Part shown: piece after piece, positions 10,088 to 39,884 of the stretch | How positions within the stretch are numbered: position 1 is the stretch's first letter | Layout of the letters: each line of letters opens with the position of its first letter | NCBI GenBank assembly: GCA_003599755.1 | Contig: QZJO01000009.1 | Location: 22,140 to 86,139, forward strand | DNA from: Candidatus Parcubacteria bacterium | GTDB taxonomy: Bacteria; Patescibacteriota; Minisyncoccia; Sungbacterales; SURF-37 | Direction of reading: 5' to 3' | DNA length: 64,000 bases | Notes under the pieces: generated by a model | Database searches by the model: none | Seen by the model: the letters and a program-made list of their open reading frames with translations, nothing else | Told to the model about the DNA's origin: nothing | Made by a program: the position numbers and the translations under genes

Positions 10088-11833
10088 ATGATACGCACCA
10101 CGCAAAGCCGGCGCCGCGGCGAATCCTTGCCGCTGGTACTCCGGTCACTCAATCACGAAAATCGCCCCGCGCTCCGCATTATCCCGGTCGGGGGCGTCGA
10201 GGAAGTCGGTCGCAACATGACTATCCTCGAATACGGCAATGACATCATCGTCGTCGACATGGGCCTCCAATTTCCCGAGGAGGACATGCCGGGGATCGAC
10301 TACATCATTCCGAATATCGAATACCTCATCCCCAAGAAGAAAAACATCCGGGGCATCATCATCACGCACGCGCACTACGATCACATCGGCGCGATCCCCC
10401 ACCTCATGCCCATGCTGGGGGACTCGATTCCGATCTATGCCACCGACCTGGCCTGCGCGATCATCGCGCGCCGCCAGGAGGACTACAAGCACTACGGCTC
10501 GCGCCTGCAGCTCAACGAGATCAAAAACGACACCAAGCTTACGCTCGGCGCGTTCAAGATCGAATTCTTCGGCGTGTCGCACAACATCCCCGGTTCGGTC
10601 GGCGTGATCGCCGAGACGCCCGGGGGCATCGTGGTGCACACCGGCGACTTCAAGATCGATCTTAAATCCGATATCGCCGGCCGCACCGAAGTCGAGAAAA
10701 TAAAGGCGCTCGGCAAGCGAAACGTCCTTGCCCTGCTCTCGGACTCGACCAACGCCCGCGAGTCAGGCCACCAAAACTCCGAACACGAAATCAAACTGCA
10801 GCTCGAAGACATCATCCGCGATACCAAAGGCCGCCTCATCATCGGCACGTTCGCCTCGCTCTTGGGCCGCCTCAACCAGATCATCCAGCTGGCCGAGAAA
10901 TACAAGCGCAAAGTCGCCATCGACGGCCATTCGATGAAGCTCAACATTGAAATCGCCAAGAAGCTCGGCTACATGCAGTTCAACGAAAAGACGGTTATCC
11001 CGATCCAGGAGGTCGAGAACTACCGGCCCGAGCAAGTCATGATCCTTGCGACCGGCGCCCAGGGCGAAGAGCGCGCCTCGCTCATGCGCATGGCCAATCG
11101 CGAGCACCGGGTGCTCCGTATCCAGCCGGGCGACACGGTGGTCTTCTCCTCGTCGGTCATCCCGGGCAATGAGCGCACGGTCCAGCGCCTCACCGATAAG
11201 CTCTACCGCGAAGGAGCGGAAGTCATCAACAAATACATGCTCGACATCCACGCCGGCGGGCATGCCAAACGCGAGGACCTGAAGCAAATGGTGGAGTGGA
11301 TCCGGCCGAAATTTCTCGCGCCGATAGAAGGCAACCACTCGTTCTTGAAAATGCACGGCAAGGCCGCAATGGAAGCGGGCATGAAGCCCGAGCAGATCCT
11401 CATCGCCGACAATGGCCAGGTTATCTCCTGCCAGGGCAGCGTCTGCACGCTTACCGACGAACGCATCCCCTCGAGCTACGTCTTCGTCGACGGCCTCGGC
11501 GTCGGCGACATCGGCGAAGTGGTGCTGCGCGATCGCGAGGCGCTTGCCTCCGACGGCATGTTCGTCATCATCGCCGTCATCGACAGCCAGACCGGAAAAC
11601 TCCGGGGTTCGCCCGACATCATTTCGCGCGGCTTCGTGTATCTCCGGGAAAACCAGGAACTCCTGAAAGACGTGCGAAAGAAAATAAAAGACATCATCGA
11701 ATCGAGTACCACGCCAAATGAAACCTTGAACCCGCAGTACGTGCGCGACAATCTGCGCGACCGCGTGGGCCAATACCTCTTCACGAAAACCCAGCGCCGA
11801 CCCATGGTCCTGCCCGTCGTGGTCGAAGTCTAG
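10088..11833 (+). CDS. rnj: Ribonuclease J
   Basis: Metallo-beta-lactamase / beta-CASP motifs (HAHYDHIG) and full-length RNase J similarity. Confidence 0.85.
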   Translation: MIRTTQSRRRGESLPLVLRSLNHENRPALRIIPVGGVEEVGRNMTILEYGNDIIVVDMGLQFPEEDMPGIDYIIPNIEYLIPKKKNIRGIIITHAHYDHIGAIPHLMPMLGDSIPIYATDLACAIIARRQEDYKHYGSRLQLNEIKNDTKLTLGAFKIEFFGVSHNIPGSVGVIAETPGGIVVHTGDFKIDLKSDIAGRTEVEKIKALGKRNVLALLSDSTNARESGHQNSEHEIKLQLEDIIRDTKGRLIIGTFASLLGRLNQIIQLAEKYKRKVAIDGHSMKLNIEIAKKLGYMQFNEKTVIPIQEVENYRPEQVMILATGAQGEERASLMRMANREHRVLRIQPGDTVVFSSSVIPGNERTVQRLTDKLYREGAEVINKYMLDIHAGGHAKREDLKQMVEWIRPKFLAPIEGNHSFLKMHGKAAMEAGMKPEQILIADNGQVISCQGSVCTLTDERIPSSYVFVDGLGVGDIGEVVLRDREALASDGMFVIIAVIDSQTGKLRGSPDIISRGFVYLRENQELLKDVRKKIKDIIESSTTPNETLNPQYVRDNLRDRVGQYLFTKTQRRPMVLPVVVEV

Positions 11834-22281: not shown

Positions 22282-23258
22282 GAAATTTTTTCGATAGCGC
22301 GGAGCATTGCGGATCGGGCGCGCGGATTCGCTCGGACTTCATCCGCGCCCGGCCGGATGGGTTTTTTGGTGAGCAATCGGGCTTCGCCGCGCGCGGCCCA
22401 GTCGCGGAACCGCCGCTTCACGATGCCGTCCTCGCCCGAGTGGAAGGCGATCACGGCGATGCGGCCGCGCGGCGCGAGCGCCGCGAATGCGGCGGCCAGT
22501 CCTGCTTCGATATTCTCAAACTCCCGATTCACCGCGATCCGCAGCGCCTGGAATGCGCGCGTCGCCGGATGAATCTTCCCGCGGCGGAATCGAGCGGGTA
22601 TGCCCGCGGCGATCGCATCCAGAAAATCGCCTACCGTGCGAATCGGCCGCCGGCCCCGCGTTGCGACCACCGCGGCGGCGATGCGATCGGCGAACCGCTC
22701 TTGGCCGTAGTCGCGGAATATCGCCGCGAGCTCGTCGTGCGTCCGCGCGTTGAGTATGTCGGCGCCGGTTTCTCGGAGATCGCGGGAAAATCGCATGTCG
22801 AGTTCTTCAGCGTGATTTTGGAAACTGAATCCGCGCTTGGACCGCTCGAGGTGGAACGAACTCAGGCCGAGATCGAACAGGACTCCGTCCACCGGACCGA
22901 ACCCGAGCGATCGGACGAGGTTTTCGATCTGGACGTAGCTCGTCCGTTGCAAGACGCAAGCGTTGTTGCCGCGAGGCCATGTGCGCGCGATGCGTTCCTC
23001 GAGATTTGTGAAGAGCGTCTCGTCCCATTCGATTGCGAGCACCCGGCCGGTCGGACCGATGGCGTTCGCGATGTCGATCGTATGTCCGCCGCCGTCGGCC
23101 GTCGCATCGATGTAGCGGCCGCCGGGCCGGATTCCTAAATATTCGAGCGCTTCGTGGCGGAATACCGGCTCGTGCACTTGCCCTGAGCGGGGCGAAGGGC
23201 CGTGCGCGCCGTCCGAAGCGCTAGGCGCCGAGTTCTCCGAGGCGTTCGGCGATCTCAT
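22278..23258 (-). CDS. rsmH: 16S rRNA (cytosine1402-N4)-methyltransferase
   Basis: RsmH/MraW motifs (IDATADGGGHT, PVDGVLFDLGLSS). The start is either ATG 23258, overlapping mraZ by 38 nt, or GTG 23177. Confidence 0.8.
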   Translation of the reverse strand: MRSPNASENSAPSASDGAHGPSPRSGQVHEPVFRHEALEYLGIRPGGRYIDATADGGGHTIDIANAIGPTGRVLAIEWDETLFTNLEERIARTWPRGNNACVLQRTSYVQIENLVRSLGFGPVDGVLFDLGLSSFHLERSKRGFSFQNHAEELDMRFSRDLRETGADILNARTHDELAAIFRDYGQERFADRIAAAVVATRGRRPIRTVGDFLDAIAAGIPARFRRGKIHPATRAFQALRIAVNREFENIEAGLAAAFAALAPRGRIAVIAFHSGEDGIVKRRFRDWAARGEARLLTKKPIRPGADEVRANPRARSAMLRAIEKIS

Positions 23259-23652
23259 CGGTCTTTTGTTCGACGCGGCCTCGGTATTCGCGCCACTTGG
23301 CCTCGTCCCAGATCTCCGCGCGGCTATGGAGGCCGATAACGACCGCGCGATCGGTAATGCCGGCAAACGTCCGCAGGCCTTCGGGAATGAGGATCCGTCC
23401 CTGGCTGTCGATGTCGGCGTGCGATGCTCCCGAGAGTAACATTCGGGCGAATGCCCGCGAATCGGCCTGGTTCATGGGGAGGTGCGATAGCTTATCGGCG
23501 AGCTTCGCCCATTCGTCGAGGGGGTACATATATAAACACTGATCGAGCCCCCGCGTGACCACGACGCCGCCGGCAAGCGTCTTGCGGAATTTTGCCGGCA
23601 CCGCGAGCCGTCCCTTGTCGTCTATCGAATGTTCGTATTCGCCGAGCAGCAT
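23221..23652 (-). CDS. mraZ: Transcriptional regulator MraZ
   Basis: 143 aa with duplicated MraZ domains (DDKGRLAVPAKFR ... DSQGRILIPEGLR). Confidence 0.85.
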   Translation of the reverse strand: MLLGEYEHSIDDKGRLAVPAKFRKTLAGGVVVTRGLDQCLYMYPLDEWAKLADKLSHLPMNQADSRAFARMLLSGASHADIDSQGRILIPEGLRTFAGITDRAVVIGLHSRAEIWDEAKWREYRGRVEQKTDEIAERLGELGA

Positions 23653-23783
23653 GGTCGCCGCAATATCCGTTTAATCGAATGATTCGATACGACGCGCGAA
23701 CGACCGAGAATCCGGGAAAACCGCTCACCACGCCCTGCGCGATTGCAGGGCATGGCGACCAGTTATGCACATAAGGGGTTACT

Positions 23784-23812
23784 TATCCCCAAAGTTATCC
23801 ACAATTCCCCAC
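23784..23812 (-). promoter_or_regulatory. Putative MraZ operator: three direct repeats in the mraZ promoter region
   Basis: On the mraZ strand the region reads GTGGGGAAT TGTGGATAA CTTTGGGGATAA. These are three GTGGG-like boxes at ~10-bp spacing, the known MraZ-box architecture, inside an AT-rich intergenic region. Confidence 0.45.
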
Positions 23813-24030
23813 TACTGCTCCATTCTATACCACCGACGTTTCACCAATCAAATATTTACAGCAAATATGCGGCCAACTTCGATTGCCCGCTGTTTCTCTT
23901 GATTTTTTGCCGTTTTGATTTCCGGTATTCACACCTTATACACTGATATGCCATTTCACCGGGGAATCGCTGCGGCGGAAAAACGCAAAACAGCCCGCCG
24001 AAGGCGAGCTGCTTTGCGATGGTTGCGCGG

Positions 24031-24294
24031 CTATGCGGTCGGCTGCGGCCGCGGCTCTTCCCGACGATGTCCCGCTGGGCGGCGCGGAATAACGAGCACT
24101 GCTAGCAAATATGCCAGGATACCCGGGAAAAATCCGGTGAAAATAACGATCAGGAGCCAAACCAGGCGCAAGAGCGTAGGATCCACGTCGAAATATTCTC
24201 CGATGCCGCCGACCACGCCGGCAATAATTTGATTTTCCTCGCTGCGGTACAGACGCTTCATAGTTGTTATCGTTGCCATATAACGGTGACGCAT
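24031..24294 (-). CDS. PspC-domain membrane protein
   Basis: MKRLYRSEENQIIAGVVGGIGEYFDVDPTLLRLVWLLIVIF is a canonical PspC domain. GGGAGAG RBS lies 7 nt before ATG 24294. Confidence 0.65.
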   Translation of the reverse strand: MRHRYMATITTMKRLYRSEENQIIAGVVGGIGEYFDVDPTLLRLVWLLIVIFTGFFPGILAYLLAVLVIPRRPAGHRREEPRPQPTA

Positions 24295-24401
24295 ACTAAT
24301 ACTCTCCCTTTCTCGGCCGTTCCACAACGCTTCGCGATCTCCCGCTATACATAAAGTTAGGAGCGGTGCTCCTCTGCACCGCTCCCGGGCCCCGTCTCCT
24401 C

Positions 24402-25058
24402 CTATCGATTGAGGGCCTTCAAGGAATTCCGGACGCGCCGGACGATGCAGGCGGCTACGGCCGCGCCATGAACTTCCTCGTCCCCATTGGTGAAATACTC
24501 GTGGAAGCGAACTCCTCGTGCTTCCACATTCCAGCTTCGGCACGCCGTGAGCCGGCGTTCGATGTCCTCCGCGTTGTCTCCCCGTTCATGCATGCGCCGC
24601 CGGATGATCTCATCGGGTAGCGCAGCAAGGCCGATACTCAGCAGCGAATCCGCCATGCCGATGCCGGCAAGGTACTTCTGAAGATCTGCTGCGGCCGCGG
24701 GCGGGGCCTCCAAAATCCGCACGGCCCTGCCTTGGAAGCAGGCATGAACGTTCGCCTTGCGCCCGCCGTATCGGTGACCCTGCACGGGATTTATCCAGAC
24801 AAGCTCGCCGGCGTCCCGCAACCGATCGAAGGCCTTGTTCTGGATGTACTCGTACTGACCGGGAAGATCGGCCGGTTTGCGGTGCCGCGTCGTCGTAATC
24901 GGAAATGGCTTGAATTCCACCTCCTTGCTCGCGACGAGCTGTCGCAGAATCGCGCTCTTCCCCGCCCCGCTCGGTCCGCTGATCGTAAGGATGCGTGTAA
25001 CCACGAACTGCCTCCTCTCTTGCACGGTATGCTGCCTTGCCACCAGCAATGCATACAT
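24402..25058 (-). CDS. Guanylate kinase-like P-loop kinase, paralog A
   Basis: Walker A ISGPSGAGKS, a GMP-site-like TTTRHRKP...YEY motif and a Gmk-like C-terminus (IVNDD-like FTNGDEE). The start is uncertain. Confidence 0.6.
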   Translation of the reverse strand: MYALLVARQHTVQERRQFVVTRILTISGPSGAGKSAILRQLVASKEVEFKPFPITTTRHRKPADLPGQYEYIQNKAFDRLRDAGELVWINPVQGHRYGGRKANVHACFQGRAVRILEAPPAAAADLQKYLAGIGMADSLLSIGLAALPDEIIRRRMHERGDNAEDIERRLTACRSWNVEARGVRFHEYFTNGDEEVHGAAVAACIVRRVRNSLKALNR

Positions 25059-25141
25059 GATGCGGGAAAGCAATGCGTTCCGCTGCCGAAACGGCAGCAA
25101 AGAGTTCGGAGCGGCGCGCGCGGGCGCCGCTCCGATATCGT

Positions 25142-25753
25142 TTACGCTCGCACGCCCCACAGATACCGATAGGACTCGAGGACGCGCCGGATGATTGCGG
25201 CGCTTACCGCAGCGCCGGGAACTTCCTCATCATCGTTGACGAGGCATTCATCGAAGCATTCCAGGCGCCGGGCATCCGCATCCCAGGCGCGGCACGCGTC
25301 GAACCGATCCCGGATTTCCGCCGCGGAATCGCCGCGCTTCTCCATGCGCCGCAGCAGCACGTCGTCCGGCGCAGTCAGGTACACGCTCCAGACCGAATCA
25401 TGGATGCCGCTCTCACGCACGTACCCCTTCAGGCGCGGCACGATGTCCGGCGTGAGCGCCATAACGGATACCGCGCTTCCCCGAAGACAGGCGTTGATGT
25501 TTCGCCTGCGCCCGCCGTACCGATAGCCGCCGAACGACTTGACCCAGACGAATTCGCCCTGCTCATCGAACTCATCGAACGCCGGATTGGTGCAGTACTC
25601 GTAGTCGTCCCCTGCATCGGTCGGCCTCTGCAGCCGAGTGGTCGTGCTGAGAAACGGCCGGAACTTCGGTTCCGGATGCTCGAGCAGCCGCCGCATGATC
25701 GTGGTTTTACCCACGCCGCTTCGACCGCTCAGTACAACGATCCGTATGACCAT
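25142..25753 (-). CDS. Guanylate kinase-like P-loop kinase, paralog B
   Basis: Walker A LSGRSGVGKT and STTTRLQRP...YEY. GAGGAGGGGG RBS precedes ATG 25753. Collinear with paralog A. Confidence 0.6.
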   Translation of the reverse strand: MVIRIVVLSGRSGVGKTTIMRRLLEHPEPKFRPFLSTTTRLQRPTDAGDDYEYCTNPAFDEFDEQGEFVWVKSFGGYRYGGRRRNINACLRGSAVSVMALTPDIVPRLKGYVRESGIHDSVWSVYLTAPDDVLLRRMEKRGDSAAEIRDRFDACRAWDADARRLECFDECLVNDDEEVPGAAVSAAIIRRVLESYRYLWGVRA

Positions 25754-25953
25754 CGCCCCCTCCTCGCGAATGAGTGAACTGCCCATGCCTGGCACCAGGC
25801 ATACCCGAAACGAACGACTCCGTCAACCCATGGCGTTCCCGCGCGAAAACATGCCGACATCCCGTTTCGGAATGCCGGCATGCGCTCTACTTCGACATAT
25901 AAAAATGACGTTGCCGCTGCTTCCGTCTTTCCGGGCCAACGTCAACCGCGCGA

Positions 25954-27528: not shown

Positions 27529-27912
27529 TTACGTTTTGCGTGAGTGCCGCTTAAGCCAGGCAGCGATGTCCGCTATGGATTCCTTCTTCATAGCTACCCG
27601 AACCATGAAGCGCACGATTTCGTTGTTCGGCGCGCTGAATTCGTAACGATTCAAGAATAAAAAGCGCGCCGCCGCTGCAATCGCCGTGCGCTTATTGCCA
27701 TCCACGAAGACGTGGTAATTCGCAATCGCTTCAAGGTAGACGGCGGCTCTGGCGAATATATCGCGATATAACTTCTTGCCGCCGAATGCCGCCTTGGGCT
27801 TATCGGCTAGAGCGGCGAACAGTCCAACGTCGCGCACGCCATGCAAGCCGCCGGTCTCGTCGATGATTTCCGAGTGAATGATGAGGATATCCTCGGCGCT
27901 TAGGTGGCGCAT
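27529..27912 (-). CDS. doc: Doc (death-on-curing, Fic-fold) toxin
   Basis: Fic/Doc core around HVFVDGNKRTAIAAAARFL, immediately downstream of the antitoxin. Confidence 0.8.
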   Translation of the reverse strand: MRHLSAEDILIIHSEIIDETGGLHGVRDVGLFAALADKPKAAFGGKKLYRDIFARAAVYLEAIANYHVFVDGNKRTAIAAAARFLFLNRYEFSAPNNEIVRFMVRVAMKKESIADIAAWLKRHSRKT

Positions 27913-27916
27913 AGGA

Positions 27917-28147
27917 TCAGCGCTTCGCGAGCGCTTCGAGCGCCGGGCGATAGCGCTCGATAAACTTGCGGGTCCAGTCGAGCGTTTCGCGATCCACGGT
28001 TTTGTGCGGCTTGATCACCACCGACGCCTGTTTTTTGTTTATCTCAACGGAAACCCGATCCCCCACTTTGAGCCCGAGTTCTTCGAGCGTGCGTTTCGGG
28101 ATGGTCACGGCGGCCGAGCTGCCGACTTTGAGCACTTTTTGGGTCAT
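27917..28147 (-). CDS. AbrB/MazE/SpoVT-fold antitoxin (Phd-like partner of Doc)
   Basis: 76 aa with a swapped-hairpin beta-barrel signature (KVGSSAAVTIPKRTLEELGLKVGDRVSV). It lies 5 nt upstream of doc. Confidence 0.75.
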   Translation of the reverse strand: MTQKVLKVGSSAAVTIPKRTLEELGLKVGDRVSVEINKKQASVVIKPHKTVDRETLDWTRKFIERYRPALEALAKR

Positions 28148-28685: not shown

Positions 28686-28712
28686 CATTCCATCATTCGC
28701 GCGAATTAGAAA
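28686..28712. promoter_or_regulatory. Palindromic element ATTCCATCATTCGCGCGAATTAGA, copy 1
   Basis: Perfect 12-bp palindrome ATTCGCGCGAAT about 50 nt upstream of the DUF1905 gene start. A near-identical copy sits at 29418-29444. Confidence 0.5.
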
Positions 28713-29332
28713 TACCAAGGAAGAGGAGCAATCCCGAGCAATAGTATGGCGCATCGTATCATAACGCCTTTTTTTATTGCTTCGATATACTTGGGGTGAT
28801 CAATTTTATGCGGCGCATCTTCTACGATAATGAGCTTGGCTCGTTTCGCCAGCGCAGCAGTTTCTTCGCATCTTATTTTCAATTGCGGAAATCTGCGTCC
28901 CTCGACCGCCCCATAAAATATCGTCGTCGGCATCGTGAGGGTTTGGGCGATGGTTCGAGCGCTTCGAGTCCGAGTATCTTCGAATCTCCGCTTACCGATC
29001 AGTTTTCTAACCCAGGATTTCATAGCGGTTCGATCTTCGCGGAAATCTGGACTCAACGAGCACAAGTAGAGTTGTTTGGGCTTAAATTCGCCTGCGGTCA
29101 TAAAGGCGATAACCGCCCCATAAGAGAATCCGAGAAAATAGTCATTGCCAGTTCGATGTTCTCGGTAAAACTTTTTAAAATCAATGACATAGTCCGACAC
29201 CACGCGGTACTTCCATTTGATCGGGACCCCGAAGACTCGAAAACCTTTGTGTTTTAAGAATTTAATTAACCAACCATAATTCCGGCTCGATGTTTTTTCT
29301 TGCCAACCAGGAATGACAAAAATTGTTTTCAT
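28706..29332 (-). CDS. Alpha/beta hydrolase-fold protein
   Basis: 208 aa with GFSYG nucleophile-elbow motif. AT-rich. Confidence 0.6.
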   Translation of the reverse strand: MKTIFVIPGWQEKTSSRNYGWLIKFLKHKGFRVFGVPIKWKYRVVSDYVIDFKKFYREHRTGNDYFLGFSYGAVIAFMTAGEFKPKQLYLCSLSPDFREDRTAMKSWVRKLIGKRRFEDTRTRSARTIAQTLTMPTTIFYGAVEGRRFPQLKIRCEETAALAKRAKLIIVEDAPHKIDHPKYIEAIKKGVMIRCAILLLGIAPLPWYF

Positions 29333-29417
29333 TGTTACCCGCTATTTCTTATAAATCCGAGATAAAACTGCTATGGAATTATTGTGGGTCGTGGATTGTG
29401 TTAATTTCTATTTCTAC

Positions 29418-29444
29418 TATTCCATTATTCGCGCGAATTAGACA
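29418..29444. promoter_or_regulatory. Palindromic element ATTCCATTATTCGCGCGAATTAGA, copy 2
   Basis: Same 12-bp palindrome about 95 nt upstream of the hydrolase gene start. Confidence 0.5.
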
Positions 29445-29523
29445 AGGAGACGAGAGACGAGGAGGGAGAGAAAAATGGATGGAAGAAGATTCGAGGCGGC
29501 GCCAGCAGCGCCGCCTCCTCGGT

Positions 29524-30132
29524 TTACTGTTGCTCCTGTCGCTCGTGGATACCGTAGCGCCGGAGAAGATGCTCGCGTACCTTCCCGCCCTGTTCGTACG
29601 GCACAATGACCGCCGTGATTGGGATGCCGTAGAACTGGTTCAGGAATGTGAAGACGTCGTCCATCTGCTCCTTCCCGACCTTACCGGATCCGCTGCAGTC
29701 GGTGCAACCGGCCGCGATGAGGACCTTGTGCGGCGTCCCCACCTCGTAGACCACGTCGTGACGGCTGCGATCGGGTTCCCAGCATTCCGCATGAATGACG
29801 CGAAGATACCATCCGCGCAGGAAGCCCGGGAACGCCTTGCCGAGCTCACTGACCGTATGAGCGATGAGTGGATCCTGATAGGGCGACCCGGGATACCCGA
29901 CGAGCGCGATGCGGCGAGGCCGACCGTTCTCCTGGCTCGGAACCGAAAGACCGTACGGATGCTCGTCCAGATCGCAGATCTGCTCATGCGGCTTCGCGTC
30001 ATCATATACGATGCGCTGCGCCGACCGTTGCGCGACTTGAAGCAGGTACGACAGGCCAGCCATGGCTGGAGGTAGCGAGTCGCCATTGTGCACGGCGATC
30101 CGCTGGGAGGAGTTGGGCTTAGCGTGTCTCAT
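29524..30132 (-). CDS. Hypothetical protein, high-GC insert within the island
   Basis: GGAGG plus 4 nt plus ATG. Contains W/Y/H/C-rich segments (CTDCSGSGKVGKE) and no recognisable family. A 200-aa antisense ORF with its own RBS exists at 29479-30075, so the strand is not certain. Confidence 0.4.
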   Translation of the reverse strand: MRHAKPNSSQRIAVHNGDSLPPAMAGLSYLLQVAQRSAQRIVYDDAKPHEQICDLDEHPYGLSVPSQENGRPRRIALVGYPGSPYQDPLIAHTVSELGKAFPGFLRGWYLRVIHAECWEPDRSRHDVVYEVGTPHKVLIAAGCTDCSGSGKVGKEQMDDVFTFLNQFYGIPITAVIVPYEQGGKVREHLLRRYGIHERQEQQ

Positions 30133-30214
30133 ACGCCTCCTTGAAAGAGCATTTTTTTGTCTCGAGAGCTATTTTCTATTATATTATATTTATATAAATA
30201 GTCAAGTCTATCCT

Positions 30215-30310
30215 CGCATTCTCAAGAATGTTGGAATGTTCCTGTCCCCTGCTTCGGATCTGTGGATTCTCGGGGCGGCGGCGATGGAGGCGTCGAGGTT
30301 TTTGATGGTG
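30215..30310. repeat. Island repeat R3
   Basis: CATTCTCAAGAATGTTGGAATG ... CTGTCCCCTG ... GGGGCGGCGGCGATGGAGGCGTCGAGG is about 85 % identical to R5. Confidence 0.6.
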
Positions 30311-30446
30311 GATTTCTATGAATTGGTCGAGCCTGCGTTATTGCCTAGGACTAGGAATGTGCAGAAAATACTGTGTTTCAGAGCTTGGGTTGAAAATAAC
30401 CATAAATCCTAGTACCATTGAAACAGAAGAGTCGTTATGCCGTCAG

Positions 30447-30677
30447 ATGTATAGTGGCATGAAATTTGAGTTTACGCAGCATGCCCGGCAGCGCTGTAAG
30501 GAACGACGCATTAGATTTCAAGACGTCAAAGCGGTTGTCTCGAATCCCTCTACGACAAAGATAACTGCAGCCGGAACTATTGAAGCCCGGGGTAGAATTC
30601 GCAGCAAGACACTGGTAGTAATTTTCGCGGTGAAGCGAGATCTGCGTATAATAATTACGGCATATTATGAAGTTTAG
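30447..30677 (+). CDS. DUF4258-domain protein, toxin-like
   Basis: MKFEFTQHARQRCKERRI matches DUF4258. Its stop overlaps the start of the next gene. Confidence 0.6.
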   Translation: MYSGMKFEFTQHARQRCKERRIRFQDVKAVVSNPSTTKITAAGTIEARGRIRSKTLVVIFAVKRDLRIIITAYYEV

Positions 30678-30885
30678 CTACGACAAATACGCTGACGCAG
30701 TGTATATACGAGCGAAGTCGGCAAAGATTAAAAGAACTGAAAAATTTCAGGACGATATTCTTATTGACTTTGATGCGGAAAACAAAGTCCGTGGTATAGA
30801 GATATTGAATGTATCCGAATGGCTATCTAAAGATAAAACTCCAAGCGTGGAAATCGGAAACCGCAAAATACCCATTCCGGCGTAG
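30667..30885 (+). CDS. DUF2283-domain protein, antitoxin-like partner of DUF4258
   Basis: 72 aa with YDKYADAVYIR...DFDAENKVRGIEI (DUF2283), overlapping the upstream gene by 11 nt. Confidence 0.6.
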   Translation: MKFSYDKYADAVYIRAKSAKIKRTEKFQDDILIDFDAENKVRGIEILNVSEWLSKDKTPSVEIGNRKIPIPA

Positions 30886-30897
30886 TGAACGAGTCAA

Positions 30898-30925
30898 AGG
30901 CCGCTCCTTTAGAGAGCGGCCTTTG
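30898..30925 (+). terminator. Hairpin terminator after the DUF2283 gene
   Basis: AAAGGCCGCTC-CTTTAGAG-AGCGGCCTTT. Confidence 0.55.
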
Positions 30926-30940
30926 TATTTCAATCGTCAA

Positions 30941-31055
30941 TCCGGTTTATTCTGATGTTCCTAAGAAGATCGGAATAAATGGAGATGGGCGGAAGATGGA
31001 TGATCGGATCTTTTGTGGGTTTGCGGGGCGGCGGCGATGGAGTTTATGCTGCTTC
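30941..31055. repeat. Island repeat R4
   Basis: TCCGGTTTATTCTGATGTTCCTAAGAAGATCGGAATAAATGGAG...GGGGCGGCGGCGATGGAG combines the R1-type 5' part with the R3/R5-type 3' part. Confidence 0.6.
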
Positions 31056-31066
31056 AGCTATGACGG

Positions 31067-31462
31067 TTAGCTTTGGAACTCCGGCTTCGAAAGATATTCC
31101 TCGGGAATGATTTTCGCTTTGATGGTCTTTGCTCCCTGGAGATAGGCCTTTGCTAACCGATGCACGCCGTCGATGACAACAAGTCGACCGTTGAATCGCC
31201 GAAGGAGGATCGGATATTGCAAGTCGGTGTCATCGACGCGTTTTTGATGCGCTGATGTCCCCGCCTCTCCGCGGATGACTTGCCATGGCGTGAGATTCCA
31301 ATCATCGGTGCCGTCCTGTTCCCAGACCGGCATATCGAAATGCCATACAAGTTCGTCGATCGCCACATCGATAATCGGCAGCGGCAACTCGCGGAGTTTT
31401 ACGGTGTCTACAAATAAATTGAGGCCGGCATCGGTCAGTATTTTGGGCGGTGTTTGTTCCAT
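31067..31462 (-). CDS. ParB/sulfiredoxin-fold nuclease-domain protein
   Basis: VVIDGVHRLAKAY carries a DGxHR motif typical of ParB N-terminal (ParBc) nuclease domains. Confidence 0.5.
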   Translation of the reverse strand: MEQTPPKILTDAGLNLFVDTVKLRELPLPIIDVAIDELVWHFDMPVWEQDGTDDWNLTPWQVIRGEAGTSAHQKRVDDTDLQYPILLRRFNGRLVVIDGVHRLAKAYLQGAKTIKAKIIPEEYLSKPEFQS

Positions 31463-31506
31463 AAAAACATGAGAAGCTGCGGGGCTGATTGAAAGCGAGG
31501 AAATGT

Positions 31507-31625
31507 GACATTCTCACATTCTCAAGAATGTTGGAATGTACTCGTTTCCTGTGGCCTGTCCCCTGTTCTGGGCTGGTGGGTTTGCGGGGCGGCGGCGATG
31601 GAGGCGTCGAGGGGTTTAAGGGGCG
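31507..31625. repeat. Island repeat R5
   Basis: CACATTCTCAAGAATGTTGGAATG...CTGTCCCCTGTTCTGG...GGGGCGGCGGCGATGGAGGCGTCGAGGGG. Confidence 0.6.
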
Positions 31626-32018
31626 GATTTTATGGTTGCTGCCAAAGTGGGACGAGTTCCGAACGATAAAGTGGGATGAAATGTTCGAATTTCCTAGCGT
31701 TTCTCTCGACCAGATGCAGAAATTGCTTGCGCTCCAGTGATGCCGGATCAACATTCGAACCGGCTATTAGTTGAAACTGGCAGAGCAACGCTGCTGGTAT
31801 TTTGTAGTAATGAATGATAATGCCAGCGTGTTAGTATTTGCATTCACAATCTTCGCCATTATAGTCACTCTGTTTTTGCTGCCATCGGTTTTTGGACTCT
31901 ACGCTACGCGCCAACCGTGGCGATTTGAAGAATGGTGCCTCGGCGTTTACGGTAAAGAACGATGTGAACGAGAGCGCCATCTTCTCCGGTGGGAGTTTTC
32001 TGAATTTCAGTAAAAGAT

Positions 32019-32798
32019 TCACTTTCGAGTTCTTAAGTCTTTCAAAAACTTCGAAAATGTCTTCTGTAAATTCGGAAGGCCGCTTAGTGAATCGTTCCCA
32101 AATTTTATCAGTAGAATCGCTCCGGGGACTGCGAAGACAATATACGACAAGAAGTAGAATAGCCACCAGCTTTTATCTGTATACTTTGGAATTACAACTA
32201 AACTACCGCCGAGTCGCACAGCGGCAATTTCCGGTGAATCAATAACTTGCCCGACATTAGAAATCGCACAGAATATTTCCTGCCATCTTTGCGAAACTTC
32301 CGTGATACGAATAGAGGACAAAACTTGTCTGCGCTGCCCGGGATCGATTTCAACTGGCTCACCATTGCCCGGAGGGGTACATTTCAGTGTAAATGCTGTC
32401 GATGTAGCAAAAATTGGCTCGTCTTGTGTTCCCGAAAATTGATCTAGCGCGAGATGATTTTCAATTTCGATGTTGTATTCAATTCTCGGAGATGACCTTA
32501 ACCATCCGATGAATTCGTTTATTTCTTTTTGTTCAACCGCTTCTCGGACCGCTTGAGCAATTTGATCATCAGCTGGATAGAGGATCTCATTCCCCTCTCG
32601 AGCAATTGAGGCTTCGAAACCATATGATGATTCGTTGAATGAGAAGCTAATACCCTTGACGGACGGCGAAATGAAAAAATAACCAACCTCCAAGAGCAAC
32701 GCGACCAGAAGAACACCGAAAATCGGCCAAAAATGCCTAAAGAAAATTTTCAAAAATCTGAAAACTTTCTGGCTAGCCTCGCCAAATTTTGAAAGCAT
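32019..32798 (-). CDS. Hypothetical membrane protein, AT-rich
   Basis: 259 aa with two N-terminal TM helices. No recognisable domain. Confidence 0.45.
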   Translation of the reverse strand: MLSKFGEASQKVFRFLKIFFRHFWPIFGVLLVALLLEVGYFFISPSVKGISFSFNESSYGFEASIAREGNEILYPADDQIAQAVREAVEQKEINEFIGWLRSSPRIEYNIEIENHLALDQFSGTQDEPIFATSTAFTLKCTPPGNGEPVEIDPGQRRQVLSSIRITEVSQRWQEIFCAISNVGQVIDSPEIAAVRLGGSLVVIPKYTDKSWWLFYFLSYIVFAVPGAILLIKFGNDSLSGLPNLQKTFSKFLKDLRTRK

Positions 32799-32911
32799 AG
32801 CGGTTAATCACTTCGGTCTTGTCGTTTCAAATGGGAAAATTTTGTAATATCGCGCAATTTCTTTCTCCCGCGAAGGACTAAAGGACTTGCGGGCGAGGCT
32901 CTCTAGAAGTC

Positions 32912-33763
32912 CTATCTGGCAGCAATAGTGCGAGGCACATTTAAACCAGAACTGAAAAAGAGGATCTCTTTGCCCACTCGTGGTCCGCGCGCAGTATGCA
33001 AAAGATGGTGACGCTTTGATCTAAGACCGGCATAAATCTTTCGAATCTCGGCATGATCATCGTAGGAAACAATCCACCTCACCCCTTTGATGCTTCTTAC
33101 TACTTTACCGACGGCTACATGGTCATCCTTGTCGTAATGGTTCATGTATAAAGACTCGCCTTTTAGATAGTACGGAGGGTCAAGGTAGAATATTGTTTTT
33201 TTGTTCTCTAACCTCCTCGCAATTTTCCGAACTAAATCCATTGCGTCCATATGTTTGACATGGATTTTGCTTTTATGCTTGGCAATTTTCTTTATGCGCT
33301 TTATCAGCTCCTTTTTGTTGAAGCGACAATTCAGCTTGTACTCGCCCGTCTGATGAATATTCCCGATAGGGCCTCCGTTGAGAATCCCCGAGACATTTGT
33401 TCTATTCAGGAAGAAAGTAGCAAAGCCGAGCTTAAGCAAAGGTTCGTTCTCTTTATTTTGAAGAATCGCGCGCTGCCTCTTCCATGTTGTAATATTTACC
33501 CGTGTCGCGCGGATGAGTTTTATCAACTCTTCCGAGCGGTGAACTGCGGAGTACCAAAAAGCATAAATAGCCCTATCCTTATCGTTTATTGTTATCTCTG
33601 AAACGTACCCCTCAAACAAAAGGTGGAGAGCCACAGATGCACCTCCGGCATACGGCTCTACATAATGTCCGTTGATATCGTTGCGCTCACAGATTTTTGC
33701 AATAAACTTTGCGAGCTCATTTTTTCCTCCCGGATATCGAAGCGGTGAATAAAATTTTTTCAT
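32912..33763 (-). CDS. dam: DNA adenine methyltransferase (Dam/D12 class, N6-adenine)
   Basis: N-terminal LRYPGGK (motif I/FxGxG region) and DPPY catalytic motif. Confidence 0.85.
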   Translation of the reverse strand: MKKFYSPLRYPGGKNELAKFIAKICERNDINGHYVEPYAGGASVALHLLFEGYVSEITINDKDRAIYAFWYSAVHRSEELIKLIRATRVNITTWKRQRAILQNKENEPLLKLGFATFFLNRTNVSGILNGGPIGNIHQTGEYKLNCRFNKKELIKRIKKIAKHKSKIHVKHMDAMDLVRKIARRLENKKTIFYLDPPYYLKGESLYMNHYDKDDHVAVGKVVRSIKGVRWIVSYDDHAEIRKIYAGLRSKRHHLLHTARGPRVGKEILFFSSGLNVPRTIAAR

Positions 33764-35136
33764 GACAACTTGTTTGTGTCTAAGCTGCTCAGGAGATCGT
33801 TCGGCTCTTGCAGCATAAACTCGATCAAGGGTATCAGATTCTCGCCTTGTGTTCTCGCATCACTCGCGGACGCGCCTACCTTATAATTATGCACTACTTG
33901 ATGTAGCTTTTCGAGGTCGAATCCACGGAAAGCGTTTTTTGTACCAGTGTCGGTGATCAGCTCGGTAAATTTTTCTTTTAACACGGCAAAGTTGGTGTAA
34001 GTGTTTCTCCTACCATGCCTGTCGTAGAAGGCGGAATGAAAATTGTTGTACGATGCAAGCTCCTTATTTTTGTATTTCGTCTCCGCAACAACATATTTCA
34101 GCACGGCCTCAAATGTAACACGAACAAGAGCAACCTTCGCGTTCGCAAACTGCGAGTTGTCGAGGTTATAACATTCGTTAACGAGGCGCTTTAATTTCGG
34201 TGCAACTTGTTTCCGCTCATACGCCGGTCGTGTCTTTACGGATCCTCTTTTACCCGGAGTGATTGGCGTAGTTGTTGGGAGAGATGTGGGCGTTGTACCT
34301 TGCTCGACCTCTGCTTTCGGCAGTTCTTTTGGCGTAAAGCCATGGGTAGACAACCTCTTGAGAAAATCCCCGTGTTCGTGATCCACATCACCATGTGAGG
34401 TTTTAGGCTTAGCGTTAAGATATGCAACGAGGGCGCTGATATACGAAGTAAACTGCGCTTGATCTAGTATCTCGATAACGTATGCAGGCTTGCCCTTGAA
34501 CTGATAGCCGCACTGCTTACTGTACGCAAACAGACGTTCAAAAATAATGGTTTTGCCACCGGCGTTCCCTTTTCCACGACGCAACAATTTCTTTAGGTCT
34601 TCTTCTCCAATCTTTACAGCCTCGTAGTAGAAGCTAGCGAGCTTAATGAGCCGCGATGGGTTTGAGTCGATCTCGCGTATTACTTCTTCTGAGGAACCGG
34701 ATTGGTGCATTTCGTACGCTTTGAGGGCTTTTGCAATCGGATCCCATTCCCTAAAGAGGCTATGCATGTGCTGTTCTTGGATGCGTCGATCAAGCTCTTT
34801 CTCGTCGCGGTACACCAGCACAGGTAGCTGTTTTATATCTACCTTTGCGAGCTCAAGCCCGTACTTCCTTTGGTTACGTAGGGCTTTGACGGCCGCACAT
34901 CTGCGATTACCATCGCGCACAAGAAAATTCTTGCCTTTTGGCACAACCCACAAAGCTTGATCTGGGTAGAAATAACCACGATCAGAGATATTCTTTGCCA
35001 CTTCTTCAGCCGCCTCTGTATAAAGTAGGTATTCAACAAGATCTTCCTCTCTTCCGCTGCCACTATAAAGCTCTGCGAACCTATGATTATTAGGATCGAG
35101 TATGAGCTGAGTTATATTCTTATATTCGATTTTCAT
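33760..35136 (-). CDS. ParB N-terminal-domain protein (458 aa), translationally coupled to dam
   Basis: ILDPNNHRF ... LVRDGNRRCAAVKAL resembles the ParB NPxQPR and GERRxRA boxes. It overlaps the dam start by 4 nt. Confidence 0.55.
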   Translation of the reverse strand: MKIEYKNITQLILDPNNHRFAELYSGSGREEDLVEYLLYTEAAEEVAKNISDRGYFYPDQALWVVPKGKNFLVRDGNRRCAAVKALRNQRKYGLELAKVDIKQLPVLVYRDEKELDRRIQEQHMHSLFREWDPIAKALKAYEMHQSGSSEEVIREIDSNPSRLIKLASFYYEAVKIGEEDLKKLLRRGKGNAGGKTIIFERLFAYSKQCGYQFKGKPAYVIEILDQAQFTSYISALVAYLNAKPKTSHGDVDHEHGDFLKRLSTHGFTPKELPKAEVEQGTTPTSLPTTTPITPGKRGSVKTRPAYERKQVAPKLKRLVNECYNLDNSQFANAKVALVRVTFEAVLKYVVAETKYKNKELASYNNFHSAFYDRHGRRNTYTNFAVLKEKFTELITDTGTKNAFRGFDLEKLHQVVHNYKVGASASDARTQGENLIPLIEFMLQEPNDLLSSLDTNKLS

Positions 35137-35186
35137 GCTTCGTTCTAGATTTGCTATTCCGATTTTGAAAGGCTAGTACTAAAAGG

Positions 35187-39839: not shown

Positions 39840-39847
39840 CGGGAGTA

Positions 39848-39884
39848 ATTATAGCATCCACCTTTTCGCATTGCAAGATCCACC
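39848..39884 (-). promoter_or_regulatory. Predicted sigma70-type promoter of lexA
   Basis: On the lexA strand: -35 TTGCAA, 17-nt spacer, -10 TATAAT ending 9 nt before the ATG, so the transcript is probably leaderless. GGTGGAT direct repeats flank the -35 box. Confidence 0.45.

What the first reader, a model, noticed from the sequence alone, without database searches (positions are those of the whole stretch)
24031..25753. Two tandem divergent guanylate-kinase-like paralogs followed by a PspC-domain protein, directly upstream of the mraZ cell-wall cluster
Both kinases retain the Gmk-type Walker A, an S/TTTRxxRP GMP-site motif, a Y...YGG segment and a ...NDDEE C-terminus. They are only about 30 % identical to each other.

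A reduced genome carrying two collinear Gmk homologs is unexpected. One may be the true Gmk and the other a neofunctionalised nucleotide kinase.

The operon ends with a PspC-domain membrane protein, which hints at an envelope-stress link.
Basis: partly seen in the sequence, partly recalled or inferred. Interest (0 to 1): 0.55.

Follow-up and report, generated by a model that had tools for sequence, protein, structure and literature searches.

The report
Duplicated divergent guanylate-kinase-like genes
Two neighbouring genes in this tiny-genome (Parcubacteria) bacterium are an old local duplication of an uncharacterised guanylate-kinase-like nucleotide kinase that is typical of ultra-small bacteria and archaea and has lost the residues that normally recognise guanine, so its true substrate is open, while the PspC and cell-wall genes next to it look like neighbours, not partners.

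Summary
The three genes are real and sit on the minus strand at the stated coordinates. K1 is 25145-25753, K2 is 24405-25004 and the PspC-domain gene is 24031-24294, directly upstream of mraZ.

- K1 and K2 are 45% identical, not about 30%.
- K2 carries ITTTRHRKP, not an S/T...R form of the motif.
- Each gene is followed by its own stable hairpin, so an operon is not shown.

Neither kinase is a canonical Gmk. They score 72 and 58 bits on the Gmk equivalog model, whose cutoff is 160. Both belong to a distinct subfamily found mainly in Patescibacteria/CPR and some DPANN archaea.

This subfamily keeps the P-loop, the LID arginines and the residues that clamp the acceptor phosphate. It replaces human GMPK E72 with Trp, D103 with Val/Thr and D101 with Ile/Leu.

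The family is normally single-copy. K1 and K2 are sister genes (195 of 200 bootstraps). K1 looks like a typical member. K2 evolved faster and has further acceptor-site changes.

PspC was not detected near the kinase gene in any other locus I fetched. The mraZ adjacency recurs in five other species.

Verdict: a lineage-specific duplicate of an uncharacterised variant NMP kinase. Base specificity is unresolved and interest is moderate.

The parts
25145..25753 (-). K1: guanylate-kinase-fold NMP kinase of the CPR/DPANN 'Trp-type' subfamily. It is 203 aa (NCBI RJQ36685.1, C4552_02210, called 11 aa longer). It looks like a typical family member.
   Evidence: ORF and RBS. Pfam PF00625 51.2 bits. TIGR03263 71.8 bits against a cutoff of 160.45. 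AF2 pLDDT 94.2 and Foldseek hits to Gmk structures. Keeps 25/28 family-conserved positions.
24405..25004 (-). K2: the faster-evolving paralog of K1. It is 200 aa from the GTG start (NCBI RJQ36684.1, C4552_02205, called as 252 aa). At the acceptor site, human S37 is Ile, R44 is Lys, E72 is Trp, T83 is Gly and D103 is Pro.
   Evidence: ORF and RBS. 45% identity to K1. PF00625 38.6 bits and TIGR03263 57.8 bits. AF2 pLDDT 93.6 with a Gmk fold. Keeps 21/28 conserved positions and has the longer branch.
24031..24294 (-). Small PspC-domain membrane protein (87 aa). It is a neighbour, not a conserved partner of the kinases.
   Evidence: PF04024 79.5 bits. Below the PspC equivalog cutoff, 58.8 against 104. 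No PspC detected by tblastn in the other family loci.
25106..25135 (-). GC-rich hairpin directly after the K1 stop codon. It is homologous to the hairpin after K2.
   Evidence: Folding energy -27.8 kcal/mol, z = -4.6. The pattern GGAGCGGYGC-N-GCRCCGCTCC occurs only at these two sites in the window, against 0 expected.
24359..24386 (-). GC-rich hairpin directly after the K2 stop codon. Relative to the K1 hairpin, its stem differs by a paired C-G to U-A change.
   Evidence: Folding energy -23.6 kcal/mol, z = -3.1.
23984..24018 (-). Intrinsic-terminator-like hairpin plus T-run after pspC. It separates this group of genes from the mraZ promoter region.
   Evidence: Folding energy -31 kcal/mol, z = -5.2.
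25845..25887 (-). Terminator-like hairpin followed by UUUUCG, after the upstream 138-aa gene. It suggests that K1 starts its own transcription unit.
   Evidence: Sequence. Folding energy -33.6 kcal/mol, z = -4.1.
23221..23652 (-). mraZ, the first gene of the division/cell-wall cluster. This is context only.
   Evidence: PF02381 124.9 bits. A family kinase gene lies close upstream of mraZ, on the same strand, in 5 other species.

Best explanation
K1 and K2 arose by a lineage-specific tandem duplication that copied the gene together with its 3' hairpin. The duplication is old, because the copies are now only 45% identical.

The duplicated gene belongs to a distinct subfamily of guanylate-kinase-fold nucleoside-monophosphate kinases. 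I call it 'Trp-type' here. It is found mainly in Patescibacteria/CPR and in some DPANN archaea.

Shown by the evidence:
- The family keeps the parts needed for ATP-dependent phosphoryl transfer to a phosphorylated acceptor. These are the P-loop, the LID arginines (human R137 and R148) and the Arg/Arg/Tyr/Tyr clamp on the acceptor phosphate (R41, R44, Y53, Y81).
- The acidic guanine pocket is remodelled. E72 becomes Trp, D103 becomes Val/Thr and D101 becomes Ile/Leu. A second family-specific Trp replaces a Glu that is invariant in my canonical set.
- The family is normally single-copy. Its gene tree follows local synteny, with separate PfkB-linked, mraZ-linked and DPANN clades. That pattern fits a vertically inherited housekeeping gene.

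Inferred:
- The family acts as an NMP (or dNMP) kinase in nucleotide salvage. It either recognises guanine in an altered way or accepts other or more bases.
- K1, which looks like a typical member, keeps the ancestral job.
- K2 evolved faster and has extra acceptor-site changes (S37 to Ile, R44 to Lys, D103 to Pro). It has probably shifted or narrowed its acceptor preference, or has weakened activity.
- PspC and mraZ are neighbours only.
For: Family membership:
- An exhaustive HMMER search with the K1+K2 profile found 785 cluster representatives at E <= 1e-10. Of the 144 top-listed representatives of 330 aa or less, 138 carry Trp at K1 position 70.
- A family-profile search separates family members (150-231 bits) from canonical Gmk (118 bits or less).
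- All members tested score 75-97 bits on TIGR03263, against 213-239 bits for canonical Gmk and a cutoff of 160.

Residue mapping:
- Two methods agree: a HMMER pairwise alignment to mouse Gmk 1LVG and an hhalign profile-profile alignment.
- The mapping also fits the secondary structure of the model.
- The roles of the residues come from PMC12297293 and from the title of the E72Q/D103N paper cited in PMC4177761.

Distribution:
- A strict DNA pattern found 63 loci among species-representative genomes. By record title, 47 are CPR, 8 are DPANN or other archaea and 8 are other.
- The same pattern found nothing in 2.9 million viral contigs.

Evolution of the pair:
- K1+K2 are sister genes in 195/200 NJ bootstraps, and the family separates from canonical Gmk in 198/200.
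- K1 keeps 25/28 family-conserved positions and K2 keeps 21/28; the family mean is 26.
- The two 3' hairpins are homologous and differ by a compensatory stem change.
- Both proteins model confidently as a Gmk fold.

Neighbours:
- The synteny clades are seen.
- No PspC homologue was detected near the kinase in any other locus.
Against: - There is no biochemical evidence for any member of the family.
- In human GMPK, E72A has no detectable activity and D101 helps position Mg2+ through water. By canonical rules the family should be a poor GMP kinase, and its catalytic competence is assumed rather than shown.
- I could not test whether genomes carrying the Trp-type gene also carry a canonical gmk. 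The 64-kb window holds none, but it covers only a quarter of the 264-kb contig.
- The tree is neighbour-joining on 182 columns, not maximum likelihood.
- K2 could be decaying rather than gaining a new function.
- I had no access to model coordinates, so the position of Trp70 in the pocket rests on alignment, not on measured distances.
Confidence: 0.6

Rival explanations
1. K1 is the cell's working guanylate kinase, a divergent ortholog that recognises guanine through Trp and other residues. K2 is a neofunctionalised nucleotide kinase.
For: - K1 keeps S37, R41, R44, Y53, Y81 and the LID arginines, and looks like a typical member of a single-copy, vertically inherited family.
- JGI annotates family members as guanylate kinase.
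- A KEGG-based survey reports Gmk as present in Paceibacteria and ABY1 but absent in Microgenomatia (PMC9166423). None of the 63 record titles in my scan names a lineage that I recognise, from memory, as Microgenomatia.
- No canonical gmk lies in the window.
Against: - E72 and D103 H-bond the guanine base, and both are replaced. E72A abolishes human GMPK activity.
- K1 and K2 have additionally lost T83, which is Gly in both.
- Whether a canonical gmk exists elsewhere in the genome was not tested.
Confidence: 0.4
2. K2 is a decaying or non-catalytic copy. It could be a pseudo-enzyme or a binding protein, as in MAGUK GK domains, left over from the duplication.
For: - K2 has the lowest conservation at family-invariant sites (21/28, the family's 5th percentile) and the longer branch.
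- S37 is Ile and R44 is Lys. In human GMPK, S37A raises KM more than 10-fold and R44A is inactive.
- The independent tandem pair in L033 also has a degenerate second copy, with T-D-R and R44 replaced by Leu.
Against: - The ORF is intact and has a strong RBS.
- The P-loop and all LID arginines are intact.
- GC3 is 0.73, in the range of the neighbouring coding ORFs.
- The fold is modelled confidently.
- The 3' hairpin is maintained by a compensatory change.
- The copies are 45% identical after a long divergence without a frameshift, which argues for continued selection.
Confidence: 0.15
3. The family is not an NMP kinase. It would instead be a sugar-phosphate kinase resembling PhnN (ribose-1,5-bisphosphate to PRPP) that works with the adjacent PfkB kinase.
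For: - A PfkB ribokinase-like gene lies immediately upstream, on the same strand, in about 11 CPR species.
- Family members give weak PhnN hits of 29-42 bits.
- The acidic base pocket has been lost.
Against: - Canonical Gmk controls hit PhnN at similar or higher scores (35.5 and 52.1 bits), so the family shows no special affinity to PhnN.
- All members score higher on Gmk models than on PhnN.
- The TTR..R..Y...Y phosphate clamp and the YG(T) segment are Gmk-like.
- The PfkB gene also sits next to a class II aldolase, as expected for a glycolytic kinase, so the adjacency may be plain synteny.
- In this window the PfkB ortholog is 35 kb away.
Confidence: 0.07
4. K1, K2 and pspC form an envelope-stress or cell-division-linked operon that is functionally tied to the mraZ cluster.
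For: - The genes share a strand and lie close together.
- The hairpins after K1 and K2 lack a strong T-run, so read-through is possible.
- A family kinase gene lies close upstream of mraZ in 5 other species.
Against: - No PspC homologue was detected by tblastn near the kinase gene in any other fetched locus.
- A strong terminator separates pspC from mraZ, and mraZ has its own promoter-like element with operator-like repeats.
- No match to a defence system beyond weak P-loop-only hits (E 0.0015-0.006).
- The family has a different conserved neighbour, PfkB, in another clade.
Confidence: 0.05

Closest known systems
Guanylate kinase (Gmk/GMPK, EC 2.7.4.8; TIGR03263, PF00625)
   Same: - Same three-part fold: CORE, NMP-binding domain and LID. 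Foldseek TM is about 0.75 to many solved Gmk structures.
- Same P-loop and same LID arginines.
- Same Arg/Arg/Tyr/Tyr clamp for the acceptor phosphate.
- Similar length.
   Different: - Human E72 is Trp, D103 is Thr (K1) or Pro (K2), T83 is Gly, and D101 is Ala (K1) or Glu (K2). K2 has also lost S37.
- A second family-specific Trp (K1 W157) replaces a Glu that is invariant in my canonical set.
- Scores are less than half the equivalog cutoff.
Mouse Gmk E72Q/D103N engineered mutant (Stolworthy and Black 2001, known to me only from the title cited in PMC4177761)
   Same: The same two positions that H-bond the guanine base are altered. This shows that changes at these positions can redirect base specificity in this fold.
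   Different: The mutant carries Gln/Asn, which are H-bond donors suited to adenine. The natural family carries Trp plus Val/Thr/Pro. The outcome for specificity cannot be read from the mutant.
PhnN, ribose 1,5-bisphosphate phosphokinase (TIGR02322)
   Same: It is a Gmk-fold kinase that has left nucleotide substrates. It is a precedent for a change of acceptor within this fold.
   Different: K1 and K2 score only 31.6 and 29.3 bits against a cutoff of 156. Canonical Gmk controls score about as well or better. No phn genes were seen among the neighbouring ORFs I annotated.
MAGUK GK domains (catalytically dead Gmk fold that binds peptides)
   Same: They are a precedent for a Gmk paralog losing catalysis after duplication, which is relevant to K2.
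   Different: K2 keeps an intact P-loop and the LID arginines. No eukaryote-type domain partners are present.
PspC (phage-shock protein C, TIGR02978) for the third gene
   Same: It has a PspC domain with one predicted membrane helix (PF04024, 79.5 bits).
   Different: At 87 aa it scores below the equivalog cutoff (58.8 against 104). No pspA or pspB was seen among the neighbouring genes I annotated.

Membership tests
Canonical guanylate kinase (Gmk, TIGR03263 equivalog) | Whole-protein score at or above the curated equivalog cutoff (160.45 bits) | tested here: not met
   K1 scores 71.8 bits and K2 57.8 bits. Canonical controls P0015 and P0030 score 238.9 and 212.9 bits.
Canonical guanylate kinase (Gmk, TIGR03263 equivalog) | Gmk fold: P-loop CORE, NMP-binding domain and LID | tested here: met
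   AF2 pLDDT 94.2 (K1) and 93.6 (K2). All top Foldseek PDB hits are Gmk structures or MAGUK GK domains, with TM about 0.7-0.79.
Canonical guanylate kinase (Gmk, TIGR03263 equivalog) | P-loop GxxGxGK[ST] and LID arginines (human R137, R148) | tested here: met
   K1 has GRSGVGKT, R140 and R150. K2 has GPSGAGKS and the equivalent arginines. These positions are invariant or nearly invariant in the family.
Canonical guanylate kinase (Gmk, TIGR03263 equivalog) | Acceptor-phosphate clamp (human R41, R44, Y53, Y81) | tested here: met
   K1 has R40, R43, Y51 and Y79. K2 has R, K (with an Arg one position earlier), Y and Y, so K2 meets this only partly.
Canonical guanylate kinase (Gmk, TIGR03263 equivalog) | Glu that H-bonds the guanine base (human E72; E72A is inactive) | tested here: not met
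   Trp in K1, in K2 and in 138/144 top-listed family representatives. Glu in 18/18 canonical sequences at that column. Residue role from PMC12297293.
Canonical guanylate kinase (Gmk, TIGR03263 equivalog) | Other guanine and Mg contacts: human S37, T83, D103 and D101 | tested here: not met
   K1 has S, G, T and A at these positions. K2 has I, G, P and E. The family consensus is S, T, V/T and I/L. The MAFFT alignment disagrees by two residues around D101/D103. HMMER, hhalign and the model's secondary structure agree with each other.
Canonical guanylate kinase (Gmk, TIGR03263 equivalog) | GMP + ATP to GDP + ADP activity; rescue of a gmk mutant | not testable with these tools
   This needs enzyme assays and complementation.
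Pfam Guanylate_kin superfamily (PF00625) | Score at or above the gathering cutoff (25.2 bits) | tested here: met
   K1 scores 51.2 bits and K2 38.6 bits.
CPR/DPANN 'Trp-type' Gmk-like subfamily (defined here) | Trp at human E72, a second Trp at K1 position 157, hydrophobic residues at D101/D103, a TTR..R..D motif, and separation from canonical Gmk in a tree and by profile score | tested here: met
   Both K1 and K2 have W70 and W157 and the D46 motif. They cluster inside the family, which separates from canonical Gmk in 198/200 bootstraps. The profile-score test is circular for K1, because K1 and K2 are in the query profile, and K2 is not among the rows listed there. The subfamily is my own definition, not a curated one.
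PhnN ribose-1,5-bisphosphokinase (TIGR02322) | Score at or above the equivalog cutoff (156 bits) | tested here: not met
   K1 scores 31.6 bits and K2 29.3 bits. Canonical Gmk controls score 35.5 and 52.1 bits.
PspC envelope-stress protein (TIGR02978) | Score at or above the equivalog cutoff (104 bits), with psp operon partners | tested here: not met
   Score 58.8 bits. Only the PspC domain (PF04024) is met. No pspA or pspB among the annotated neighbours.

The most novel reading that the evidence does not exclude
The Trp-type protein would be the only guanylate-kinase-fold enzyme in most Paceibacteria/ABY1-type CPR bacteria and in some DPANN archaea. It would work either as a GMP kinase with a new, Trp-based mode of base recognition or as a broad-specificity (d)NMP kinase that lets these minimal cells run nucleotide salvage with fewer enzymes. 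In the DPANN lineages that carry it, it would also supply the guanylate-kinase step for which no archaeal enzyme had been identified as of PMC4177761 (2014). In this genome the duplication would have split that role between K1 and K2.
Probability: 0.3. Interest if true: 0.65.

Novelty: new variant of a known kind. Interest (0 to 1): 0.42.

Why it matters
Patescibacteria largely lack de novo nucleotide synthesis and live on salvaged nucleotides (bioRxiv 10.64898/2026.06.21.733656). How they turn NMPs into NDPs is therefore central to their metabolism.

Metabolic reconstructions count this family in different ways. JGI names its members guanylate kinase. NCBI calls them hypothetical proteins, because they fall below the equivalog cutoff.

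If the family is a true GMP kinase, it shows that guanine can be recognised without the Glu that is essential in human GMPK. If it is not, CPR pathway maps that list 'Gmk present' may be wrong, and a new NMP-kinase specificity awaits description.

The K1/K2 pair offers a natural comparison of two acceptor pockets on one scaffold. The duplication itself occurs in a single MAG and is of modest interest.

Tried and rejected
- The search for related loci with family alignments A2 and A3 failed on both collections, because no conserved 7-10-column stretch was available. I replaced it with a hand-designed degenerate DNA pattern. I first checked the pattern at protein level: it matched 98/181 family members and 0/217 canonical sequences.
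- I tried to extend the window by 10 kb on each side to look for a canonical gmk, using GroES and PfkB as anchors. All three look-ups failed because no gene with exactly those products is on record. Co-occurrence with a canonical gmk therefore stays untested.
- The AFDB50 fold library was unavailable.
- Defence-system idea: PADLOC gave only weak P-loop-only hits, which I rejected.
- Phage-origin idea: K1 scores 81 bits on phrog_1815 'guanylate kinase', but the family pattern has zero matches in 2.9 million viral contigs. Rejected.
- Domain fusions as a functional clue: several family members carry an N-terminal DUF7768. That domain has no solved relative by sequence and no literature, so it was uninformative.
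- A first literature search for Gmk residue roles returned noise. A second search found PMC12297293.
- A Biopython NJ run with bootstrap timed out. I replaced it with a numpy implementation.
- The MAFFT placement of D101/D103 disagreed with HMMER and hhalign. I adopted the latter two because they also match the secondary structure of the model.
Full report
**1. What is in the sequence**

All the relevant genes lie on the minus strand.

- K1 runs from 25753 down to 25145 (203 aa). GAGGAGGGGG lies just upstream of its ATG.
- K2 most plausibly starts at the GTG at 25004, 6 nt after GAGAGGAGG, and ends at 24405 (200 aa). NCBI's record calls a longer 252-aa form.
- The third gene, 24294-24031, encodes an 87-aa protein with a PspC domain (PF04024, 79.5 bits).
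- Downstream come mraZ (PF02381, 124.9 bits), rsmH, an ftsL/DivIC-like gene, a PBP and a Mur ligase.
- Exact-sequence look-ups show that the window comes from a 263,839-bp contig of a 'Candidatus Parcubacteria bacterium' MAG. K1 is C4552_02210 and K2 is C4552_02205, and both are annotated as hypothetical proteins.

Three details are not.

- The paralogs are 45% identical (89/199, E = 4e-61), not about 30%.
- K2's motif is ITTTRHRKP, not an S/T...R form.
- 'Operon' is not shown. Each gene is followed by a stable hairpin:
  - after K1, -27.8 kcal/mol;
  - after K2, -23.6 kcal/mol;
  - after pspC, a classic hairpin plus T-run, -31 kcal/mol.
  - A further terminator-like hairpin precedes K1.

**2. 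Neither kinase is a canonical guanylate kinase**

- Both pass the broad Pfam Guanylate_kin model (51.2 and 38.6 bits).
- Both model confidently as a Gmk fold, with pLDDT 94.2 and 93.6. All top Foldseek hits are solved Gmk structures or MAGUK GK domains, at TM about 0.7-0.79.
- On NCBI's Gmk equivalog model TIGR03263 they score only 71.8 and 57.8 bits against a cutoff of 160.45. Canonical Gmk controls from my own hit lists score 213-239 bits.
- PhnN, the other named Gmk-fold kinase, is a much poorer match (31.6 and 29.3 bits against a cutoff of 156). The canonical Gmk controls hit PhnN about as well or better, at 35.5 and 52.1 bits.

**3. They belong to a distinct subfamily**

- Word-indexed searches with K1 or K2 alone returned only the query itself and canonical Gmks at about 30-35% identity.
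- An exhaustive HMMER search of 1.84 billion cluster representatives with the K1+K2 profile found 785 proteins at E <= 1e-10. The scores decline smoothly from 187 bits.
- A search with a 40-member family profile gave a clear gap. Family members score 150-231 bits, one protein scores 126 bits, and canonical Gmks score 118 bits or less.
- Every family member I tested scores 75-97 bits on TIGR03263.
- In an NJ tree of 135 sequences and 182 columns, the family separates from canonical Gmk in 198/200 bootstraps.

**4. What defines the subfamily**

I mapped residues onto human/mouse GMPK numbering in two independent ways. One was the HMMER pairwise alignment to mouse Gmk 1LVG. The other was an hhalign profile-profile alignment of 116 family sequences against about 200 canonical sequences. 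They agree with each other and with the strand and helix boundaries of the K1 model. A plain MAFFT alignment shifted the D101/D103 region by two residues, and I set it aside for that reason.

Residues that are kept:
- the P-loop;
- R41, R44, Y53 and Y81, which clamp the acceptor phosphate;
- R137 and R148 in the LID;
- S37 and T83 in most of the family.

Residues that are replaced:
- E72 becomes Trp. This holds in 138/144 top-listed representatives, while Glu occupies that column in 18/18 canonical sequences.
- D103 becomes Val or Thr.
- D101 becomes Ile or Leu.
- A second Trp (K1 W157) replaces a Glu that is invariant in my canonical set.

What these residues do in human GMPK (PMC12297293):
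- S37, E72, T83 and D103 hydrogen-bond the guanine base.
- E72A, R41A and R44A have no detectable activity.
- S37A raises KM more than 10-fold.
- T83A and D103A have mild effects.
- D101 contacts Mg2+ through water.

A mouse Gmk E72Q/D103N double mutant is reported to be a functional adenylate kinase. I know this only from the paper's title as cited in PMC4177761. The family has therefore rebuilt two of the positions that read the guanine base.

K1 and K2 differ from the family and from each other:
- K1 has S, W, G, A and T at human S37, E72, T83, D101 and D103.
- K2 has I, W, G, E and P at the same positions, and Lys at R44.
- The shared T83-to-Gly change is unusual for the family, in which Thr occupies that column in about 90% of members.

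**5. Where the family occurs**

A strict degenerate DNA pattern for TTRxxRxxDxxGEYx[YH]x5F matched 98/181 family members and 0/217 canonical sequences at protein level. In one genome per species it found 63 loci. My count from the record titles is:
- 47 CPR/Patescibacteria: Paceibacterota, Nomura-, Adler-, Yanofsky-, Uhr-, Moran- and Vogelbacteria, plus many labelled Saccharibacteria;
- 8 archaeal: Woesearchaeota, Nanoarchaeota, and three labelled Methanosarcinales that cluster with the DPANN sequences;
- 8 others.

Further points on distribution:
- The same pattern has no match in 2.9 million viral contigs. The family is therefore cellular, even though K1 scores 81 bits on a phage 'guanylate kinase' family.
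- By eye, most of the locus-encoded proteins have the Trp. Six do not: T in L012 and L064, V in L013 and L032, and E in L045 and L048. The four of these that I scored (L045, L048, L012 and L032) reach only 41-85 bits on TIGR03263. CPR bacteria thus hold several divergent Gmk-like lineages.

**6. Copy number, synteny and the duplication**

- Among about 70 fetched family loci, only the window and L033 contain two adjacent copies. In L033 the second copy is also the degenerate one, with T-D-R and R44 replaced by Leu. In the NJ bootstraps the L033 pair grouped as sisters in only 1/200 replicates.
- The closest relatives of K1 and K2 (P0142, P0143, P0145) are single-copy on their short contigs and sit in unrelated contexts.
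- Two neighbourhoods recur:
  - A PfkB ribokinase-like gene lies immediately upstream, on the same strand, in about 11 species. The window's own PfkB ortholog (57% identical) is 35 kb away, at 61041-62030.
  - mraZ lies close downstream, on the same strand, in five species: L061, L024, L026, L018 and L016.
- The gene tree follows these neighbourhoods. PfkB-linked genes fall in one clade of 19 tips, four of the five mraZ-linked genes fall in another clade of 7 (L016 was not in the tree), and the archaeal genes cluster together. That pattern is what one expects of a vertically inherited housekeeping gene.
- K1 and K2 are each other's closest relatives in 195/200 bootstraps. K2 lies farther from every relative, at 1.24-1.33 against 1.08-1.14 for K1.
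- At the 28 columns that are at least 80% conserved in the family, K1 matches 25 and K2 matches 21. The family mean is 26 and its 5th percentile is 21.
- The hairpins after the two genes share the stem GGAGCGGYGC/GCRCCGCTCC. This pattern occurs nowhere else in the window, against 0 expected by chance. The two stems differ by a paired C-G to T-A change. The duplicated unit therefore included the 3' hairpin, and the hairpin has been kept by compensatory change.

**7. PspC and mraZ**

- tblastn with the PspC protein (E < 1e-4) found no homologue in any other fetched family locus. The domain is short, so distant copies could have been missed.
- The protein scores below the PspC equivalog cutoff (58.8 against 104).
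- A strong terminator and a promoter-like element with three direct repeats separate it from mraZ.
- PADLOC found no match to a defence system beyond weak P-loop-only hits.
- I see no support for an envelope-stress link. The recurring position upstream of mraZ is best read as synteny.

**8. What the kinases most likely do**

Shown: K1 and K2 are intact Gmk-fold proteins that keep all the phosphoryl-transfer residues I mapped except the Mg-water Asp (D101), and they have a remodelled, non-acidic base pocket. They belong to a widespread, normally single-copy CPR/DPANN family.

Inferred:
- The family works as (d)NMP kinases in nucleotide salvage.
- K1 retains the family's role.
- K2 has shifted or weakened its acceptor preference.

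Whether the family phosphorylates GMP is open.
- For GMP:
  - JGI names members guanylate kinase.
  - A KEGG-based survey finds Gmk in Paceibacteria and ABY1 but not in Microgenomatia (PMC9166423). No title in my scan names a lineage that I recognise, from memory, as Microgenomatia.
  - No enzyme for the guanylate-kinase step had been identified in Archaea as of PMC4177761, from 2014. In DPANN carriers this protein may therefore be the only Gmk-fold enzyme.
- Against GMP: E72 and D103 are lost, and so is the Mg-water Asp.
- Some Patescibacteria manage with no Gmk at all, such as strain OT8 (bioRxiv 10.64898/2026.06.21.733656).

I could not test whether genomes with the Trp-type gene also carry a canonical gmk. 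The window has none, and my attempts to extend it failed.

**9. Verdict**

The copies are unequal and one has probably diverged in function. But 'one true Gmk plus one novelty' does not fit, because both belong to an uncharacterised variant family.
- The PspC link is not supported.
- I rate the finding a new variant of a known kind, of moderate interest (0.42). Most of that interest comes from the family-level question about CPR/DPANN nucleotide salvage. The duplication itself is seen in a single MAG.

Noticed in passing
window 28700-40500: A low-GC island (GC 0.43-0.51, against 0.58-0.63 elsewhere) that is probably foreign DNA. It holds an MmeI-family restriction-modification fusion protein (35187-38027, minus strand), a D12-class N6-adenine methyltransferase (32912-33763, minus strand), an unannotated 458-aa protein (33760-35136, minus strand) and a LexA-like repressor (39150-39839, minus strand).
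   Followed up: partly
window 27529-28147: A Doc/Fic-family toxin gene (27529-27912, minus strand) sits with a MazE/AbrB-type antitoxin gene (27917-28147, minus strand). A GNAT acetyltransferase, a DUF1801 protein and a DUF1905 protein lie nearby. The stretch between the kinases and the low-GC island looks like accessory genes.
   Followed up: partly
window 23783-23851: Upstream of mraZ there is a promoter-like TTGATT-18-TAGAAT on the minus strand. It is followed by three direct repeats about 10-12 nt apart, which read TGGGGAAT, TGTGGATAA and TTGGGGATAA on the minus strand. From memory, this resembles the MraZ operator layout known from other bacteria.
   Followed up: partly
L001, L015, L031, L036, L043, L046, L051, L058, L065, L067, L068; window 61041-62030: A PfkB ribokinase-like gene lies immediately upstream of the Trp-type kinase gene, on the same strand, in about 11 CPR species. 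In L001 it is also next to a class II aldolase. In the window the PfkB ortholog (57% identical) is 35 kb from K1/K2.
   Followed up: partly
L033 1082-2384: An independent tandem pair of Trp-type kinase genes in another CPR-labelled genome. The second copy is degenerate, with T-D-R in place of T-T-R and the second phosphate-clamp Arg replaced by Leu. This parallels the K1/K2 asymmetry.
   Followed up: partly
P0213, P0239, P0277 (family members outside the window): Several family members carry an N-terminal DUF7768 domain fused to the kinase. The domain has no solved relative by sequence and no literature. Its sequence reminded me of nucleoside 2-deoxyribosyltransferase-like domains, but I did not test that.
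   Followed up: partly
L012, L013, L032, L045, L048, L064: Other CPR Gmk-like lineages share the TTR..R..D..GEY motif but have Thr, Val or even the canonical Glu at the human E72 position. The four I scored (L045, L048, L012, L032) reach only 41-85 bits on the Gmk equivalog model. CPR bacteria seem to hold several divergent Gmk-like lineages.
   Followed up: partly
L010, L022, L030, L034, L047, L050, L056, L063: The Trp-type kinase also occurs on contigs titled Woesearchaeota, Nanoarchaeota or Methanosarcinales, and these sequences cluster together in the gene tree. I did not check the contigs for archaeal marker genes.
   Followed up: no
window 10088-11833, 48602-49204, 57813-60953: RNase J, a Ham1/ITPase-type non-canonical NTP pyrophosphatase, and a 1046-aa mycosin/subtilisin-like protease are also encoded in the window. 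The first two fit a lifestyle based on nucleotide salvage.
   Followed up: no
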